From IMG/VR virus record IMGVR_UViG_2609459795_000003: a stretch of 29,443 nt of DNA, one strand, 5' to 3'. Source of the stretch: a virus. Taxonomy: Duplodnaviria > Heunggongvirae > Uroviricota > Caudoviricetes. The notes under the pieces were generated by a model. It was given only the letters and a program-made list of their open reading frames with translations, ran no database searches and had not been told where the DNA came from. The position numbers and the translations under genes were made by a program. This document shows positions 2,901 through 29,028 of this stretch, piece after piece (position 1 is the stretch's first letter; each line of letters starts with the position of its first letter).

Positions 2901-3979
2901 CAGAACGGGTCCTCCTGTACTCTGGCTTTTTTCTTTTTCCGCGCGCCGGGGGCTTCGGGTTCAGGCAGATAAGCATCAGGTGGGCCGACACGGATTTCCG
3001 TCAGGGTGCCATTCTGGTCCTGAGTAAACGTGACTTCCGAGACAAGCAGTTCGGTATTGTCGAAACCACAGACCGGATCGAAGACAATCACCCGCTGGTT
3101 GGGCTGCCACAGCGTACCGTTACCCTGTCGCCAGCCCTGCACCACATAGGTGGTTTCATCCGTCCGCGCCGCCCGTTGTCGGGCTTCAAAGTCAGCACGC
3201 GCAATACAGCCTGCCCCCGTAGCCTGCCCTGTCTGCCTGATATACATCGGACGGTAACGGGCAATAAATGCATCCTCTGTGCGGGCCCGCAGCGCGGTGG
3301 TGGTGGCCTCACCGAAATCATCGTCGTTTCCGGCACGCTGCCCCGCCACCTGGTAAACTGAAAACCGCTCCCGGATACTCTTCTCCGTATCACAGGAAAG
3401 GATGTTTTCCCCAAGTACCAGCGCGGTATGTGCCCGCGTTGAGCCAATACCACCAATCACCAGCCTGCCGTGCGGGTCGTCATAAGCCAGCGCCTGCTGC
3501 TGACCGAGTATTTTGTTGATCACCTCGATCACCGTTTCACCGTGATCAGGCTGGACATCCGGAATAACACCCGACGGCGCATCGCTGTTCACCACCTCAA
3601 TGCCGAAAGGCGCAGCAAGCGCCTGCGCAATCTGTACCAGCGATCGTCCGTTAAACTGTGTCGGTTCGGCTGCACAGTCAATCAGGTCAGCAGTCAGACT
3701 ACGTCCGGCAATACCGGTGCTGACCGAACGGGCATCGTAACGAACGGGGGTCGCCTCCACCCAGCCGGTGATCACCAGCTCATCACCAATCAGCACTTCC
3801 ACTTTTGAACCATTTTTAATGCGCGGCTGAAGCGTGGTGATACCCTCATCTCCCGGCCACTGGCGGGTGATCCCCACGCTAAAACCCCGCCCCAGCCGTT
3901 CAATACCGGCACCGATGCGCACCGATGTCCAGCCATTCCACTCTCGGCCATTTACCCGTAGCGTGACGTTATCGTTCAT
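2900..3979 (-). CDS. Mu gp44 (P)-like baseplate hub / tail protein
   Basis: 359-aa ORF following the DNA-circulation-protein gene with a 4-nt overlap (3976-3979); Mu-like synteny. Confidence 0.6.
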   Translation of the reverse strand: MNDNVTLRVNGREWNGWTSVRIGAGIERLGRGFSVGITRQWPGDEGITTLQPRIKNGSKVEVLIGDELVITGWVEATPVRYDARSVSTGIAGRSLTADLIDCAAEPTQFNGRSLVQIAQALAAPFGIEVVNSDAPSGVIPDVQPDHGETVIEVINKILGQQQALAYDDPHGRLVIGGIGSTRAHTALVLGENILSCDTEKSIRERFSVYQVAGQRAGNDDDFGEATTTALRARTEDAFIARYRPMYIRQTGQATGAGCIARADFEARQRAARTDETTYVVQGWRQGNGTLWQPNQRVIVFDPVCGFDNTELLVSEVTFTQDQNGTLTEIRVGPPDAYLPEPEAPGARKKKKARVQEDPF

Positions 3980-25387: not shown

Positions 25388-25848
25388 TCTTCACCCGATG
25401 CAGCGCGCTTGCTGCTTTTCCGTAAGCACCGCTCACGACGCGCCAGAAAATTGTTTCGTTCTGGCTGGGAGTGGCTTTCACGGAATGCCGCCATCCACAC
25501 GGTTGCAGCACGACGGTATAAGCCCCTGGACTCCAGTTCTTCCGCCTGGCGGGTCAGGCACAAAATCACCCGGGGATCGTTAGTGCCGACATAGAAATTA
25601 CGCACAGGTCTGGTTTCACGAACTGGTTGTGGTTTCGGCTCCTGCGCTCTCTCAGTCAGGCGCGGGAAATGTCTGCGTGTATCTCCTTCACAACGGTGAG
25701 CCACACGTCCACTCTGACGTAACTTGCTTGCTGACTGCAGAACGCGCTGCCGTGAGTAACCAGCAAAAGCATCCGCAATGTCTCCGGAAGTACACCCCGG
25801 ATGGGCTTCAATGAATTTCTGAACGTCATTTAACAGACTCATGATCAC
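25354..25848 (-). CDS. PerC-like transcriptional regulator (putative)
   Basis: 164-aa ORF; C-terminal segment AEELESRGLYRRAATVWMAAF resembles the conserved PerC/Pch motif as I recall it; probable start is the ATG at about 25842. Confidence 0.4.
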   Translation of the reverse strand: MIMSLLNDVQKFIEAHPGCTSGDIADAFAGYSRQRVLQSASKLRQSGRVAHRCEGDTRRHFPRLTERAQEPKPQPVRETRPVRNFYVGTNDPRVILCLTRQAEELESRGLYRRAATVWMAAFRESHSQPERNNFLARRERCLRKSSKRAASGEEWYLSGNYVGA

Positions 25849-26786
25849 CCCCTGAATCCTGCCGGGATCTGGCTGTAGTCCACATTGTCGTAACTGGATT
25901 TGAAGTACGGGTCTTCGCGTTTTTCGGTGTACGTGCTTACGGACGGCGATAAGCGCAGGGAAAGCTCATCCCATTTTTCCCGCAGCTTCGACGGGCTGAG
26001 CACGTTACGGCACCAGAACGGATCGCGGCTGACGCGGCTGTACATCTCGCAGATTTGTTTGTGAGTACGACCATCCTGCACACACATCAGGCGAATTTCG
26101 TTTGCCCAGGCTGTCCAGTTCGGTTCTTTGGGACGAACCACCTCGCCGTCACATTCGGCAGCCTGCTCGTACAGGGCGATGATTTTTTTCCAGAGCCACT
26201 GTGCGCAGGTCAAATCATCCTGCGTCCCCCACTGGCGCTTTTTAGGGCTGAATACAACCGCATCAGGATGGCGAGTTAAAAAATCCTGTTCAGCCGTCTG
26301 CGTGTCCGGTTGCGAAGCGTCCGGACGAGAAGTTTTTTTATCTGACGGATCATGTTTTGATTTTACTGACGGATCCCCGCCAGATTCTGACGGGTGAAAA
26401 CCCGCTTTTTTGCCAGATTTCGACGCATCAAATTTTGACGGGTCAGATTTTGATGCGTCAGATTTTGACGGGTCAGAATCTGACAGTTGAGAAAAAGCCG
26501 CAGCCTGAAGCTTCGCAACGTTAAGCTGATAAACATTCGACGCATTGCGGTTACCCTGGCGACGCGCCTTACGCGTTAACCAGCCTTCTGCTTCCAGCCG
26601 TGCGATAGCCGTTCTGACGGTACTCATCCCCGCGCCAATCTGGCGGGCAATGGTTTCAATTGATGGCCAGCACACACCTTCGTCATTACTGAAATCAGCC
26701 AGGCGTGCCATAATTGCCACGCTGGATAATTTCATGCCTGACGCTGCGCAACCATCCCATACATAGCCGGTTAATTTAGTGCTCAT
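25845..26786 (-). CDS. Replication initiator (lambda O-like replisome organiser) with internal iterons
   Basis: 313-aa ORF; N-terminal wHTH-like domain, central repetitive linker (DPSKSDASKSDPSKFDASKS) encoded by 15-bp DNA repeats, distinct C-terminal domain; sits after the Cro/CII-like genes like lambda O. Confidence 0.6.
   Translation of the reverse strand: MSTKLTGYVWDGCAASGMKLSSVAIMARLADFSNDEGVCWPSIETIARQIGAGMSTVRTAIARLEAEGWLTRKARRQGNRNASNVYQLNVAKLQAAAFSQLSDSDPSKSDASKSDPSKFDASKSGKKAGFHPSESGGDPSVKSKHDPSDKKTSRPDASQPDTQTAEQDFLTRHPDAVVFSPKKRQWGTQDDLTCAQWLWKKIIALYEQAAECDGEVVRPKEPNWTAWANEIRLMCVQDGRTHKQICEMYSRVSRDPFWCRNVLSPSKLREKWDELSLRLSPSVSTYTEKREDPYFKSSYDNVDYSQIPAGFRG
26341..26490. repeat. 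Iteron array (candidate phage replication origin) inside the initiator gene
   Basis: About 8 copies of a ~15-bp unit (consensus near TCAGATTTTGACGGG); four consecutive copies at exact 15-bp spacing 26435-26490; an AT-richer stretch on the 3' side (26325-26370). Confidence 0.6.
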
Positions 26787-26795
26787 GACCGACCT

Positions 26796-27134
26796 CTATT
26801 TCCCTGAATTTACGACGAAACTTTTCGAGCGGACTGAAGCATTCATGCTCATAGCCTTCGCGGAGGTAGATAACCCGTTGTGTTTCCGGCTCCCAACGAA
26901 TGACTCTGACGGGTACTCCGTAGTGATCTTTGAACCAGCGGTTAACTTGTCGCAAAGGACTGTCTCCTTTTGCCGGTTAAAATCACCCACAGCCCACTCT
27001 GCAAAGCTGTGGGTTACAATTACCCTGCCACCTGGTACATTTACTGCATAGCAATACTCCACCTTCGCTTTTCCACCCGGTACAGGAAGCGCAATCAGTT
27101 GCGAGCGACGGTAGTGTGTTGTTAAACTATTCAT
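26796..27134 (-). CDS. Hypothetical protein with apparent frame discontinuity (possible frameshifted gene or two overlapping small genes)
   Basis: 112-aa ORF whose C-terminal third is low-complexity, while an alternative frame over 26776-26955 encodes a convincing 59-residue peptide (...[58 protein letters not shown]) with only a TTG start preceded by AAGGAG. Confidence 0.3.
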
Positions 27135-27682
27135 GCGTTAGTTTCTCCACAGTCACGACACGCCACGGCGCCCGGAGCTGCACACTCGCGGGCGTCATTA
27201 CTTTCTGAAATGCAAAAAATTTTGTAGACCAGTGCTGCATGCTCCTGCAGCTTCGAAATTGAGAGGTACAGCTCGTCGTTAATTGCTGTCTTCTCATGCG
27301 GTTCCACTACACCGTCTTCAATTGCTGAACGAATCTGTTTTGAATAACTGCCGATCTGTTCAATGACCTCCAGCAGGCGTTGGTTGATATCGGCGTTGTC
27401 CACATCCTCGACATCAGGAAGAGACACAAAGACGCCATTTGCAGACTGCGCCACAGCGTCAGCAATGAAGTGAGTTCCACCAGCACGTTGCAAAATCATT
27501 GCCCATCCCAGCGGGAAAATCTGATCGCCATCGGCACGAAGGCGGTTAAATAATGCGTTCTCTGTTACATCCAGCCAGTCAGCAGCTTCAGCGTAACCCC
27601 CCGGCAACGCTGCGATAGTTTTTCTGACAGCTTTCACGTACCACTCAGGCTGTTTTTCTACTTTCCAGTGATGCTTACCCAC
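27131..27682 (-). CDS. CII-like early regulatory protein (putative)
   Basis: 183-aa ORF immediately downstream of the Cro-like gene and upstream of the replication gene; family assignment by position and vague recollection only. Confidence 0.35.
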
Positions 27683-27935
27683 GGTTCACCTCCTGTTCCT
27701 GTGGTTTAAACCCATTCTGGTTTTGGCTAGATTGAAAACGTGCCGGATAAAGAATCTGCATTTCGCTGACTTCACCCTTAAAAAAATTGGCTAAACGTTC
27801 TGCAAGCTCGATAGATGGAATCTGCTCCAGCCTCTCAATACGACTCAACGTCGCTGGATTGACTTGAACACCCGCAGCAACATGCTGCAAAGTGAAACCA
27901 TGCGCCTTACGCACATTTCGTAATAGTGATTGCAT
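27675..27935 (-). CDS. Cro-like HTH repressor
   Basis: 86-aa ORF divergent from the CI-like gene; HTH-type segment (GFTLQHVAAGVQVNPATLSRIE); SD GGAGG 5 nt before the ATG. Confidence 0.6.
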   Translation of the reverse strand: MQSLLRNVRKAHGFTLQHVAAGVQVNPATLSRIERLEQIPSIELAERLANFFKGEVSEMQILYPARFQSSQNQNGFKPQEQEVNRG

Positions 27936-27945
27936 ATAACCTCCA

Positions 27946-28032
27946 AATATTGCGCGTTATGCATGTTATTTCACGCAATTATTTTGCGCAAGTTGATTTG
28001 CTTATCACGCAATAAAGAAATGTAATAAACGC
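27946..28032. promoter_or_regulatory. Immunity-region operator/promoter segment (OR-like) between cro-like and cI-like genes
   Basis: 97-bp divergent intergenic region with repeated CACGCAAT / TTGCGCAA-type motifs and a plus-strand -35 TTGCTT (27998-28003), 17-nt spacer, -10 TGTAAT (28021-28026) ending 6 nt before the cI ATG. Confidence 0.45.
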
Positions 28033-28725
28033 ATGAACATAGGAAACCGAGTCAGACAACTTCGCCAAGCGAAGAACATGAAAATCGCCGATCTCGCTGA
28101 AGCAATAGGAGTAGATGCGGCGAACATCTCGCGCTTAGAAACGGGTAAGCAAAAACAATTTACCGAACAAACACTGAGTAATATTGCCAAGAGCTTAGGT
28201 GTTGATATTGCTGATCTCTTTACCTCTGCCCACAAAAGTAATACTGTATATAAAAACAGTAATAATGAGGATGTTGCGCAGGTGAAGGATGTGTTCCGTA
28301 TTGAAATGCTGGATATCAGTGCCAGTGCGGGAAATGGCCTTATCCAAGGCGGTGATGTCATTGATGTGATTCATGCCATCGAATACAGAACTGATAATGC
28401 TGTATCAATGTTCGGCGGACGACCAGCCAATCACATCAAAGTTATCAACGTTCGTGGGGACAGTATGTGTCCAACCATTGAGCCAGGAGATCTCATCTTC
28501 GTTGATGTCAGCATCAATCAGTTTGATGGTGATGGTATATATGTCTTTGGTTTTGATGACAAAATATACGTTAAAAGACTTCAAATGATTCCTGACAAAC
28601 TGCTGGTGATTTCTGATAACCAGATTTACCGTGAATGGGGAATTACTAGCGAAAACGAACACCGATTCATGGTCTTTGGAAAGGTCTTAATCAGTCAGTC
28701 GCAAACCCTTAAGAGACATAATTAA
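28033..28725 (+). CDS. CI-type prophage repressor (HTH plus S24 LexA-like peptidase domain)
   Basis: 230-aa ORF; N-terminal HTH (RVRQLRQAKNMKIADLAEAIGVDAANISRLETGK), C-terminal autocleavage domain with GDSM (catalytic Ser) and VKRL (Lys); divergent from the cro-like gene. Confidence 0.85.
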   Translation: MNIGNRVRQLRQAKNMKIADLAEAIGVDAANISRLETGKQKQFTEQTLSNIAKSLGVDIADLFTSAHKSNTVYKNSNNEDVAQVKDVFRIEMLDISASAGNGLIQGGDVIDVIHAIEYRTDNAVSMFGGRPANHIKVINVRGDSMCPTIEPGDLIFVDVSINQFDGDGIYVFGFDDKIYVKRLQMIPDKLLVISDNQIYREWGITSENEHRFMVFGKVLISQSQTLKRHN

Positions 28726-28744
28726 CCTCAATATCCCATCCATC

Positions 28745-28769
28745 GGCCACCGAAAGGTGGCTTTTTATT
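28745..28769 (+). terminator. Rho-independent terminator after the cI-like gene
   Basis: GGCCACC-GAAA-GGTGGC hairpin followed by TTTTTATT, 20 nt after the cI stop. Confidence 0.65.
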
Positions 28770-28779
28770 ACCTATAAAT

Positions 28780-28830
28780 TTGCATACCTCGCAAATATTA
28801 CTTGCATATCTCGCAATTTAATTTTATCTT
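28780..28830 (+). promoter_or_regulatory. Tandem operator-like repeats with candidate rightward promoter (OL/pL-like)
   Basis: Two adjacent ~21-bp repeats TTGCATACCTCGCAAATATTA / CTTGCATATCTCGCAATTTAAT sharing the C-N-CGCAA core seen in the cI-cro intergenic region; -35 TTGCAT (28802-28807), 17-nt spacer, -10 TATCTT (28825-28830). Confidence 0.35.
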
Positions 28831-29028
28831 TTGTTCCAGACCAACTACCGGATTACAACAAAATCTGGTTGCAACACGGTGCATGTGTCGTAAGCAGTCA
28901 GTAAATGTCAAAAACGAACAGGCAGGACGCCCACGAAGTAGCCGCCTGGGGCATATGAAGTCCAGGATGATTCGTTGAGTCATGTTGTGCCACCAGGCAC
29001 TCATGTTAAAGCAGGTGTATGAAATGAA

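What the first reader, a model, noticed from the sequence alone, without database searches (positions are those of the whole stretch)
27936..28032. Divergent cI/cro control region with shared operator motif and a probably leaderless cI transcript
The 97-bp intergenic region contains several copies of a C-N-CGCAA-type motif (TTGCGCG, TCACGCAAT twice, palindromic TTGCGCAA). A plus-strand promoter (-35 TTGCTT, 17 nt, -10 TGTAAT) ends only 6 nt before the cI ATG, so the maintenance transcript would start at or next to the start codon with no SD, as for lambda pRM-derived cI mRNA. A minus-strand candidate promoter (TTGCGC, 17 nt, TAACAT) would serve cro, which does have an SD.
Basis: partly seen in the sequence, partly recalled or inferred. 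Interest (0 to 1): 0.4.

Follow-up and report, generated by a model that had tools for sequence, protein, structure and literature searches.

The report
Prophage cI/cro switch, leaderless repressor mRNA
This 97-bp stretch is the lysis/lysogeny control region of an SfII-type prophage, with repressor-binding sites over two back-to-back promoters and a repressor mRNA that almost certainly starts at its own AUG, which is a correct but ordinary example of a well-known phage design.

Summary
The window is 98.6% identical to Shigella phage SfII cII-cro-cI. The same control region occurs in 1060 of 5426 complete E. coli genomes.

Relatives from at least eight enterobacterial genera show that the real operator is a 15-bp inverted repeat, TTGCR-N5-YGCAA. 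Two strong copies lie in the intergenic region:
- 27950-27964, centred on the predicted cro transcription start.
- 27998-28012, covering the cI promoter -35.

TCACGCAAT at 27971 is clade-specific. TTGCGCAA at 27984 is invariant and contains the cro promoter -35.

The cI promoter -10 (TGTAAT) is invariant. It lies 6 nt (7 in two relatives) before an invariant ATG, with no Shine-Dalgarno sequence. Two published dRNA-seq data sets for the homologous Salmonella prophage ST64B place the repressor start exactly on the A of that ATG. One of them places the cro-side start exactly where predicted.

Verdict: interpretation supported. This is a new member of a known kind (lambda cI, e14 ymfK, racR, dicA and paaR2 mRNAs are also leaderless). 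Low interest.

The parts
27131..27682 (-). cII-like regulator (YmfL / Phage_CP76 family), 183 aa. It overlaps the end of cro by 8 bp.
   Evidence: Pfam PF06892, E = 1.5e-13. Annotated as cII in SfII.
27675..27935 (-). cro-like gene, 86 aa, single HTH_3 domain. Recognition helix PATLSRIE.
   Evidence: Pfam. SfII annotation. Protein alignment.
27900..27914 (.). Distal operator inside cro codons 8-12 (ATGCGCCTTACGCAC). Its centre lies 50 bp downstream of the predicted PR start.
   Evidence: 11.1 bits, rank 6 in the window. It is a perfect TTGCGATTTTCGCAA in phiNP and Eeyore. The TGCG-N5-CGCA core is invariant in 13 sequences despite L->V and S->A changes, and it persists in Pseudescherichia, where the sequence at the cro start differs.
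27940..27944 (-). cro Shine-Dalgarno sequence GGAGG (CCTCC on the plus strand), 4 nt from the ATG.
   Evidence: Sequence. Conserved as CC(T/C)CC in the eight phage sequences.
27950..27964 (.). PR-proximal operator TTGCGCGTTATGCAT. Its centre, 27957, is the predicted PR transcription start.
   Evidence: 20.8 bits. Present at -76 from the cI ATG in all relatives. The ST64B minus-strand TSS lies 76 nt upstream of the cI ATG.
27963..27968 (-). PR -10 hexamer TAACAT (TAATAT in several relatives).
   Evidence: TAAYAT is invariant. It lies upstream of the mapped ST64B TSS.
27971..27979 (+). Orphan copy of TCACGCAAT. With 27984-27989 it forms an everted palindrome, ACGCAA-N5-TTGCGC (27973-27989). It belongs to no canonical 15-bp site.
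   Evidence: Sequence. No matrix-positive site between 27965 and 27997. Not conserved in ST64B, phiNP, Eeyore or the Klebsiella phages.
27984..27993 (.). Invariant block TTGCGCAAGT. The PR -35 hexamer TTGCGC is the reverse complement of 27986-27991. In some relatives its CGCAA is the right half of a middle operator centred at -49.
   Evidence: Invariant in 13 sequences. ST64B PR promoter string. Middle sites in phiNP, Eeyore and the Klebsiella phages.
27998..28012 (.). PRM-proximal operator TTGCTTATCACGCAA, centred at -28 from the cI start. Its left half is the PRM -35 hexamer (27998-28003).
   Evidence: 21.4 bits. Present at -28 in all relatives. Repeat family D1.
28021..28026 (+). PRM -10 hexamer TGTAAT, at -12 to -7 if transcription starts at 28033.
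   Evidence: Invariant in 13 sequences, 6 nt (7 in two) before the ATG, with a variable linker. It lies upstream of the mapped ST64B leaderless TSS.
28033..28725 (+). cI-like repressor, 230 aa: HTH_3 domain, Ala99-Gly100, Ser144 and Lys181 of an S24 self-cleaving domain. The A at 28033 is the predicted +1 of a leaderless mRNA.
   Evidence: Pfam. Alignment. Homologue TSS. PGAP calls the same start in E. coli O157:H7.
28745..28770 (+). Intrinsic terminator after cI.
   Evidence: Terminator scan. Annotated in SfII. A stem plus T-run is conserved in relatives.
28780..28794 (.). OL-type operator 1, TTGCATACCTCGCAA.
   Evidence: 18.6 bits. Conserved position in relatives.
28802..28830 (+). OL-type operator 2 (28802-28816, TTGCATATCTCGCAA) overlapping a PL-like promoter: -35 TTGCAT 28802-28807, 17-nt spacer, -10 TATCTT 28825-28830.
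   Evidence: 22.2 bits, the best site in the window. Operator and TATCTT are conserved in relatives. The promoter is inferred only.

Best explanation
This is the OR-type control region of the immunity switch of an SfII/ST64B-type lambdoid prophage.

Promoters. Two back-to-back sigma-70 promoters start 76 bp apart.
- PR (minus strand, +1 near 27957) makes a 22-nt-leader, SD-bearing cro-cII mRNA.
- PRM (plus strand, +1 at the A of the ATG at 28033) makes a leaderless cI mRNA.

Operators. CI (HTH plus S24 domains) and Cro (HTH only) have similar recognition helices. They are inferred to bind, as dimers, the same 15-bp operators TTGCR-N5-YGCAA.
- The site at 27950-27964 sits on the PR start and -10, so occupancy shuts off lytic transcription.
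- The site at 27998-28012 covers the PRM -35 and spacer, so occupancy by Cro, or by excess CI, shuts off cI.
- A third site in cro codons 8-12 and two sites after the cI terminator over a PL-like promoter complete the regulon.
- In all three promoters the -35 hexamer (TTGCnn) lies within an operator half-site motif.

Induction is inferred to occur by RecA-stimulated self-cleavage at Ala99-Gly100.

Shown: gene identities, motif positions, conservation, and the TSS positions in the ST64B homologue. Inferred: which protein binds which site, the order of occupancy, any activation of PRM, and the TSSs in this exact sequence.
For: Identity of the region:
- Domain content of the three genes.
- 98.6% identity to the annotated SfII cII-cro-cI.

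Operators:
- In seven fetched phages, from E. coli, Shigella, Salmonella, Citrobacter and Klebsiella hosts, sites with at least 8 of 10 consensus positions fall at the same five places, while the central 5 bp vary.
- A matrix trained on relatives alone ranks the window's four strong sites first in 29.4 kb.
- Leave-one-out scans give centres at -126, -76, -28, +755 and +778 in every phage.
- CI and Cro recognition helices (AANISRLE, PATLSRIE) are conserved across relatives and resemble each other.
- e14, which has the same module layout but a different repressor, has different inverted repeats (TGTAC type) and no TTGCG-N5-CGCAA site in its control region.

Promoters and leaderless start:
- dRNA-seq of the ST64B prophage gives a TSS on the A of the repressor ATG (5'UTR 0). 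It gives a PR TSS 76 nt upstream, behind TTGCGC-17 nt-TAACAT (PMC3293720).
- The leaderless TSS recurs in a second growth condition (PMC3963941).
- TGTAAT, the 6/7-nt distance and the ATG are invariant in 13 sequences from at least 8 genera, while the linker varies. None of six 4-nt SD-core words occurs in the 20 nt upstream of the ATG in the 12 sequences read in register.
- The first 15 residues are conserved, and Met16 is Ile or Leu in Klebsiella relatives.

OL/PL: the terminator, two operators and TATCTT are conserved downstream of cI.
Against: - No TSS or binding data exist for this exact sequence. The TSS evidence comes from a homologue that is 78% identical over this stretch.
- The generic promoter scan finds nothing here. 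The -35 hexamers match the consensus at 3 of 6 positions, and TGTAAT has G where sigma-70 promoters almost always have A (-11). PRM should therefore be intrinsically weak, and how it is kept active is unknown.
The window has no matrix-positive middle site, whereas phiNP, Eeyore and the Klebsiella phages do, at -49. The number of functional operators between the promoters is therefore unsettled.
- Relatives are related by descent, so sites at homologous positions are not independent observations.
- The motif-blind 5-mer shuffle test is not significant.
Confidence: 0.82

Rival explanations
1. cI is translated from the internal ATG at 28078 (Met16) on a leadered mRNA, as the depositors of mEp460 and phiNP annotated it. 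The ATG at 28033 would then not be a start codon.
For: The mEp460 and phiNP records start the repressor CDS 45 nt downstream. There is no SD before 28033.
Against: - Residues 1-15 are conserved at protein level while the underlying DNA varies.
- Met16 is Ile or Leu in Klebsiella relatives.
- The Pfam HTH_3 match starts at residue 7, at profile position 1, so a Met16 start would truncate helix 1.
- The ST64B TSS is on the upstream ATG.
- PGAP and the SfII, ST64B and Klebsiella annotations use the upstream ATG.
Confidence: 0.03
2. In the prophage, cI is expressed mainly from a promoter further upstream (a PRE-like promoter inside cro/cII) as a long-leader mRNA. On this reading TGTAAT is conserved for another reason.
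For: ST64B has a second plus-strand TSS 292 nt upstream of the repressor ATG, with recognisable -35 and -10 elements. TGTAAT lacks the -11 A.
Against: - In the same table the upstream TSS has 8 and 4 reads, against 59 and 218 for the TSS on the ATG.
- In late stationary phase the ATG TSS is listed as the primary one.
- The upstream region aligns poorly between ST64B and the window.
Confidence: 0.07
3. The TTGCR-N5-YGCAA sites are bound by some other factor (the CP76/YmfL-type cII or a host protein) and not by CI and Cro.
For: No binding experiment exists. The cII-type gene travels with this module.
Against: - The sites sit on the starts or -35 elements of the early promoters on both sides of cI, which is where immunity repressors act.
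- They are inverted repeats of a size suited to HTH dimers.
- The CI and Cro recognition helices are conserved wherever the half-site is conserved.
- e14 carries a ymfL homologue but a different repressor and different repeats. SfIV matches the window only over the first 580 nt, the cII-like gene, and its cI and Cro are reported to have very limited identity to those of SfII.
Confidence: 0.06
4. The repeated motif is a chance feature of an A/T-rich intergenic region.
For: A motif-blind test for any 5-mer occurring 5 or more times is not significant. The generic promoter scan is negative.
Against: - The specific motif reaches 5 in only 4 of 5000 shuffles.
- The matrix from relatives picks exactly these sites out of 29.4 kb.
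- Half-sites are invariant in 13 sequences while spacers vary.
- The same sites recur at the PL-like promoter.
Confidence: 0.01

Closest known systems
Phage lambda OR region (PRM/PR, OR1-3) with the leaderless PRM cI mRNA, plus OL/PL
   Same: - Divergent cI (HTH plus self-cleaving C-terminal domain) and cro, with transcription starts about 80 bp apart (76 here).
- Inverted-repeat operators shared by both proteins and overlapping both promoters.
- A second operator cluster on the far side of cI over the other early promoter.
- The cI mRNA starts at the A of its AUG and has no SD.
   Different: - The operator is 15 bp (TTGCR-N5-YGCAA), not 17 bp.
- There are two strong sites 48 bp apart, rather than three adjacent sites 23-24 bp apart.
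- An extra conserved site lies inside the cro coding sequence.
- OL has two sites.
- No site is clearly placed for activation of PRM at -42 in this phage.
- The PRM -10 is TGTAAT, with G at -11.
- cII is of the CP76/YmfL type. No N or cIII homologue is reported for SfII (PMC3851460).
Salmonella prophage ST64B sb38/sb39 (SL1344_1967) and Shigella phage SfII cI/cro
   Same: These are true homologues: 98.6% (SfII) and 73-78% (ST64B) DNA identity, with the same operators, promoters and spacing. ST64B supplies the mapped TSSs.
   Different: The middle TCACGCAAT copy is absent from ST64B. In the library searched I found no paper that describes the operators or comments on the leaderless start. The data sit in supplementary tables.
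CP-933P paaR2/ydaS switch of E. coli O157:H7 (Jurenas et al. 2021, PMC8630535)
   Same: A lambdoid prophage switch that also has a 97-bp intergenic region, divergent PRM- and PR-like promoters, a repressor mRNA shown by 5'-RACE to be leaderless, operators bound by both regulators, and a PL-like promoter with the same repeats.
   Different: The proteins and operators are unrelated (18-bp palindromes, GTTTAGTAA half-sites). According to that paper, paaR2 heads a toxin-antitoxin operon.
e14 ymfK (cohE)/ymfT, and the other leaderless K-12 prophage repressor mRNAs racR and dicA (Romero et al. 2014, PMC4681348)
   Same: - Same module order: S24 repressor, divergent small HTH gene, ymfL-type gene, ymfM-like gene.
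- The ymfK mRNA is reported to be leaderless.
- A -10-like hexamer lies 6 nt before the ymfK ATG.
   Different: The repressor sequence and the inverted repeats (TGTAC type) are different. No TTGCG-N5-CGCAA sites occur in the e14 control region.

Membership tests
Lambdoid CI/Cro immunity switch | Divergently transcribed repressor gene (HTH plus LexA/S24-type self-cleaving domain) and small HTH cro gene. | tested here: met
   Pfam HTH_3 plus Peptidase_S24 for the 230-aa protein, HTH_3 only for the 86-aa protein. Annotated as cI and cro in SfII.
Lambdoid CI/Cro immunity switch | Repeated inverted-repeat operators in the intergenic region that overlap both promoters. | tested here: met
   The 15-bp sites at 27950-27964 (on the PR start and -10) and 27998-28012 (on the PRM -35) are top-ranked by a matrix from relatives and conserved in position.
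Lambdoid CI/Cro immunity switch | A second operator cluster at the other early promoter (OL/PL). | tested here: met
   Sites at 28780-28794 and 28802-28816, with -35 TTGCAT, a 17-nt spacer and TATCTT, conserved in relatives. Promoter activity was not tested.
Lambdoid CI/Cro immunity switch | CI and Cro physically bind these operators with different orders of affinity. | not testable with these tools
   The only support is indirect: similar recognition helices in the two proteins.
Lambdoid CI/Cro immunity switch | Lambda-specific layout: three adjacent operators 23-24 bp apart, the middle one placed to activate PRM. | tested here: not met
   The window has no matrix-positive site between 27965 and 27997. 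The strong sites are 48 bp apart. Some relatives have a site at -49.
Lambdoid CI/Cro immunity switch | Repressor inactivated by RecA-stimulated self-cleavage (Ala-Gly site, Ser/Lys dyad). | tested here: inconclusive
   Ala99-Gly100 (SASAGNG), Ser144 (GDSM) and Lys181 (VKRL) are present and conserved, with the Ser-Lys spacing of 37 residues seen in LexA. Cleavage itself was not tested.
Leaderless mRNA of the lambda cI PRM type | Transcription starts on the A of the AUG start codon. | tested here: inconclusive
   Not mapped in this sequence. In the ST64B homologue the dRNA-seq TSS is the first base of the gene, with a 5'UTR of 0, in two data sets. The promoter geometry is identical here.
Leaderless mRNA of the lambda cI PRM type | No Shine-Dalgarno sequence upstream, and an AUG (not GUG or UUG) start. 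| tested here: met
   None of six 4-nt SD-core words occurs within 20 nt upstream of the ATG in the 12 sequences read in register. The ATG is invariant in all 13.
Leaderless mRNA of the lambda cI PRM type | A -10 element ending about 6-7 nt before the start codon. | tested here: met
   TGTAAT is invariant, 6 nt (7 in phiNP and Trabulsiella) before the ATG, with a variable linker.
Consensus sigma-70 promoter | At least 4 of 6 matches in each hexamer, with A at position 2 and T at position 6 of the -10. | tested here: not met
   The scan finds 0 sites in 27600-29000. PRM is TTGCTT/TGTAAT and PR is TTGCGC/TAACAT. Both are nevertheless used in ST64B.

The most novel reading that the evidence does not exclude
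The switch may be wired differently from lambda. It would have only two strong operators between the promoters, 48 bp apart. A conserved third operator is embedded in the cro reading frame 50 bp further on. PRM has G instead of the near-universal A at -11. Repression and PRM control could therefore depend on long-range CI contacts among the three OR-side sites and the two OL sites about 830 bp away, and not on adjacent-site cooperativity. PRM may need an unrecognised activating contact, for example through the invariant TTGCGCAAGT block centred near -42 to -49.
Probability: 0.25. Interest if true: 0.4.

Novelty: new member of a known kind. Interest (0 to 1): 0.2.

Why it matters
This immunity type sits in about one in five complete E. 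coli genomes. Its carriers include O157:H7 and Stx2-converting phages, serotype-converting Shigella phages and Salmonella ST64B.

Practical uses of knowing its operator (TTGCR-N5-YGCAA), its promoters and its true cI start:
- Correcting repressor start annotations. mEp460 and phiNP are annotated 15 codons short.
- Predicting homo-immunity between prophages.
- Designing induction or reporter experiments.

It also adds one more case to the rule that prophage repressor mRNAs are leaderless. It does not change how such switches are understood.

Tried and rejected
- Generic promoter scan: no hits. I did not take this as evidence against the promoters, because the homologue's TSSs fall exactly behind these hexamers.
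- Alternative -10 frames for PRM (TAATAA, or an extended -10 TG plus AATAAA): rejected. They are not conserved in relatives, and they would place the start downstream of the ATG.
- Alternative -35 TTGATT (27993-27998): rejected because the spacer would be 22 nt.
- Three lambda-like operators at 24-bp spacing (centres 27957, 27981, 28005): rejected. The middle element ACGCAA-N5-TTGCGC has its half-sites everted, scores below zero with the matrix, and is clade-specific.
- A weak site over the PRM -10 and ATG (28020-28034, 7.9 bits): not counted as an operator. It is lost in the Klebsiella phages, and a 1-nt insertion disrupts it in phiNP.
- Rfam: no known RNA family anywhere in the window.
- PDB sequence search: only distant HTH and UmuD-type matches, the best at E = 1e-4. 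No close solved relative of CI or Cro.
- Literature searches for a description of SfII, ST64B or mEp460 operators found none. The Alonso 2005 ST64B paper is not held.
- The ST64B PRE-like promoter could not be mapped confidently onto the window.

Full report
**What is there.** The window between 27131 and 28900 is 98.6% identical to Shigella phage SfII, where the three genes are annotated cII, cro and cI.
- The plus-strand ORF 28033-28725 encodes a 230-aa protein with an N-terminal HTH_3 domain and a C-terminal Peptidase_S24 domain.
- The minus-strand ORF 27675-27935 encodes an 86-aa HTH_3 protein.
- The next minus-strand ORF (27131-27682) is a Phage_CP76/YmfL-type cII.
- The rest of the window is an SfII/SfI-like prophage with contractile-tail morphogenesis genes.
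- The 171 bp around the intergenic region occur in 1060 of 5426 complete E. coli genomes, mostly at 90-99% identity. One carrier is an O157:H7 prophage next to a tRNA-Thr gene and proA.

**Check of the observation.** The intergenic region is 27936-28032 (97 bp, 34% G+C).
- TTGCGCG at 27950, TCACGCAAT at 27971 and 28005, and TTGCGCAA at 27984.
- TTGCTT (27998-28003), a 17-nt spacer, TGTAAT (28021-28026), 6 nt, then the ATG at 28033.
- On the other strand, TTGCGC (27991-27986), a 17-nt spacer, TAACAT (27968-27963), then GGAGG 4 nt before the cro ATG.

The core CGCAA/TTGCG occurs five times in the 97 bp. The window-wide density predicts 0.21. Only 4 of 5000 dinucleotide shuffles of the region reach five. 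A motif-blind test (any 5-mer five or more times) is not significant, so the case rests on comparison with relatives. The generic sigma-70 scan reports nothing here. Both -35 hexamers match the consensus at 3 of 6 positions, and TGTAAT has G at the second position.

**The operator.** I fetched the homologous region from SfII, mEp460, ST64B, phiNP, two Klebsiella phages and phage Eeyore. I added seven chromosomal prophages from Citrobacter (three), Pseudescherichia, Klebsiella spallanzanii, Trabulsiella and Buttiauxella.
- Scoring 15-mers against TTGCG-N5-CGCAA finds sites at the same five places in every phage, with invariant half-sites and variable centres.
- A weight matrix trained only on relatives ranks the window's sites 28802-28816 (22.2 bits), 27998-28012 (21.4), 27950-27964 (20.8) and 28780-28794 (18.6) as the top four of the whole 29.4 kb. 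The next score is 11.3. The site 27900-27914 follows at 11.1.
- In leave-one-out scans the centres fall at -126, -76, -28, +755 and +778 relative to the cI ATG in each phage.
- The repeat finder independently groups three of the sites as one family.

Two of the four copies listed are halves of such operators. TCACGCAAT at 27971 is confined to the SfII/mEp460/Citrobacter clade. TTGCGCAA at 27984 lies in a block (TTGCGCAAGT) that is invariant in all 13 sequences and carries the PR -35.

The CI and Cro recognition helices (AANISRLE and PATLSRIE) resemble each other and are conserved wherever the half-site is conserved. e14 has the same gene layout but a different repressor. It has different inverted repeats and none of these sites in its control region.

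**The site inside cro.** The site 27900-27914 occupies cro codons 8-12.
- In phiNP and Eeyore it is a perfect TTGCGATTTTCGCAA, encoding LRKSQ. That needs TTG for Leu, CGN for Arg, TCG for Ser and CAA for Gln, roughly a 1% outcome under free codon choice (my calculation from the sequences).
- In the window clade the residues change to VRKAH, but the core TGCG-N5-CGCA is kept.
- In Pseudescherichia the sequence at the cro start is different, yet ATGCGCAACGCGCAA is still there.

I take this as a real, conserved third operator on the cro side, 50 bp downstream of the PR start.

**Promoters and the leaderless start.** The strongest evidence is published and concerns the ST64B homologue in Salmonella SL1344.
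- The dRNA-seq master table of Ramachandran et al. 2012 lists TSS 2072244 (plus strand) for SL1344_1967, whose coding region is 2072244-2072939. The 5'UTR is therefore 0. The promoter string is CTTGCGCAAGTTGATTTGCACAATGCGCAAAAAATTAATGTAATGAACGCA, which is the ST64B row of my alignment ending on the A of the ATG (PMC3293720; alignment).
- The same table lists a minus-strand TSS at 2072168, 76 nt upstream, behind ...TTGCGCAAGTTTGCTGTATGAAATAACATGCGATA. That is TTGCGC, a 17-nt spacer and TAACAT.
- The leaderless TSS appears again as the primary TSS in the late-stationary-phase data set (PMC3963941).
- Transferred to the window, PRM starts at 28033 and PR at 27957. The latter is the exact centre of the operator 27950-27964.
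- Across 13 sequences, TGTAAT and the ATG are invariant and the gap is 6 nt (7 in phiNP and Trabulsiella), while the linker itself varies. None of six 4-nt SD-core words occurs in the 20 nt upstream of the ATG in the 12 sequences read in register.
- The first 15 residues are conserved, and Met16 is Ile or Leu in Klebsiella relatives. The shorter CDS annotated in mEp460 and phiNP is therefore almost certainly wrong.

**The other side of cI.** After the cI stop there is an intrinsic terminator (28745-28770). Two operators 22 bp apart follow it. The second provides the -35 (TTGCAT, 28802-28807) of a candidate promoter whose -10, TATCTT, lies 17 nt downstream (28825-28830). The whole arrangement is conserved in relatives. 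The ST64B ORF TSS rows retrieved list nothing between the cI start and 2073408. That fits a repressed PL-type promoter in a lysogen.

**How it most likely works.**
- Shown: the genes, the positions and conservation of the sites, and the two TSSs in a homologue.
- Inferred from the established logic of lambdoid switches: CI dimers on 27950-27964 (with 27900-27914) block PR, and CI dimers on 28780-28816 block the PL-like promoter.
- Also inferred: the site 27998-28012, centred at -28 and covering the PRM -35, is the place where Cro, or excess CI, turns cI off.
- Also inferred: DNA damage removes CI by self-cleavage at Ala99-Gly100 (Ser144 and Lys181).
- The cI message made in the lysogen is translated without a leader, as for lambda.
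- A second, low-level plus-strand TSS 292 nt upstream in ST64B looks like a PRE-type establishment promoter. I could not place it confidently in the window.

**What does not fit neatly.**
- The window has no canonical operator between the two strong sites, whereas phiNP, Eeyore and the Klebsiella phages have one centred at -49.
- Instead the window has an everted perfect palindrome, ACGCAA-N5-TTGCGC (27973-27989), built from the same half-sites.
- PRM has a poor -35 and lacks the -11 A, yet it is the more heavily represented TSS in ST64B lysogens. Whether CI activates it, and from where, is open.
- The three OR-side sites are 50 and 48 bp apart, which is not an obvious helical phasing.

**Comparison with what is known.**
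- The design is that of lambda OR/OL with a leaderless PRM transcript.
- Leaderless repressor mRNAs have been reported for the K-12 prophage genes dicA, racR and ymfK (PMC4681348). One was shown by 5'-RACE for paaR2 of CP-933P, which also has a 97-bp intergenic region and four inverted repeats bound by both regulators (PMC8630535).
- In the library searched I found no description of the operators of this immunity type or any comment on its leaderless start.
- The finding is therefore a correct reading of an ordinary element: a new member of a known kind.

**Verdict.** Observation confirmed. Interpretation supported, with the operator redefined and extended beyond the given coordinates. Interest is low (0.2). 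The residual novelty lies in the layout of the operators and the odd PRM -10.

Noticed in passing
window 27900-27914: A conserved operator-like inverted repeat lies inside cro codons 8-12. Its TGCG-N5-CGCA core is kept through amino-acid changes, and also in a relative whose sequence at the cro start differs.
   Followed up: partly
window 28780-28830: Two strong operators and a PL-like promoter (-35 TTGCAT, 17-nt spacer, -10 TATCTT) sit just after the cI terminator. The arrangement is conserved in all relatives examined.
   Followed up: yes
window 27973-27989: A perfect everted palindrome, ACGCAA-TTATT-TTGCGC, is made of the operator half-sites in the wrong orientation for a canonical site. 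It is present only in the SfII/mEp460 clade. Its function is unknown.
   Followed up: partly
L002 (mEp460) 1678-2325 and L004 (phiNP) 1679-2329: The deposited annotations start the repressor CDS at the internal Met16, 15 codons short. This is probably because gene callers reject the SD-less leaderless start.
   Followed up: yes
L003 (ST64B) about 1292-1342; window about 27690-27745: Published dRNA-seq shows a weak plus-strand TSS 292 nt upstream of the ST64B repressor ATG, inside cro. This is a PRE-like establishment promoter. The window aligns poorly there, although it has a TAGATT near 27730.
   Followed up: partly
window 28020-28034: A weak operator-like sequence, ATGTAATAAACGCAT (7.9 bits), overlaps the PRM -10 and the cI ATG. 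It is not conserved in the Klebsiella phages or phiNP, so it was not counted as a site.
   Followed up: partly
window 26414-26477: There are four tandem 15-bp repeats (CAGATTTTGACGGGT) inside the O-like replication gene (25845-26786). They encode the repetitive PSKSD stretch and probably serve as origin iterons, as in lambda O.
   Followed up: no
window 27675-27682: The cII-like gene starts (GTG at 27682) 8 bp before the cro stop codon ends, which suggests translational coupling of cro and cII.
   Followed up: no
L008 (E. coli K-12 e14) 3435-3524: The e14 ymfK/ymfT intergenic region has its own inverted repeats (TGTAC...GTACA type). A -10-like hexamer lies 6 nt before the ymfK ATG, which matches the published leaderless ymfK mRNA.
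   Followed up: partly
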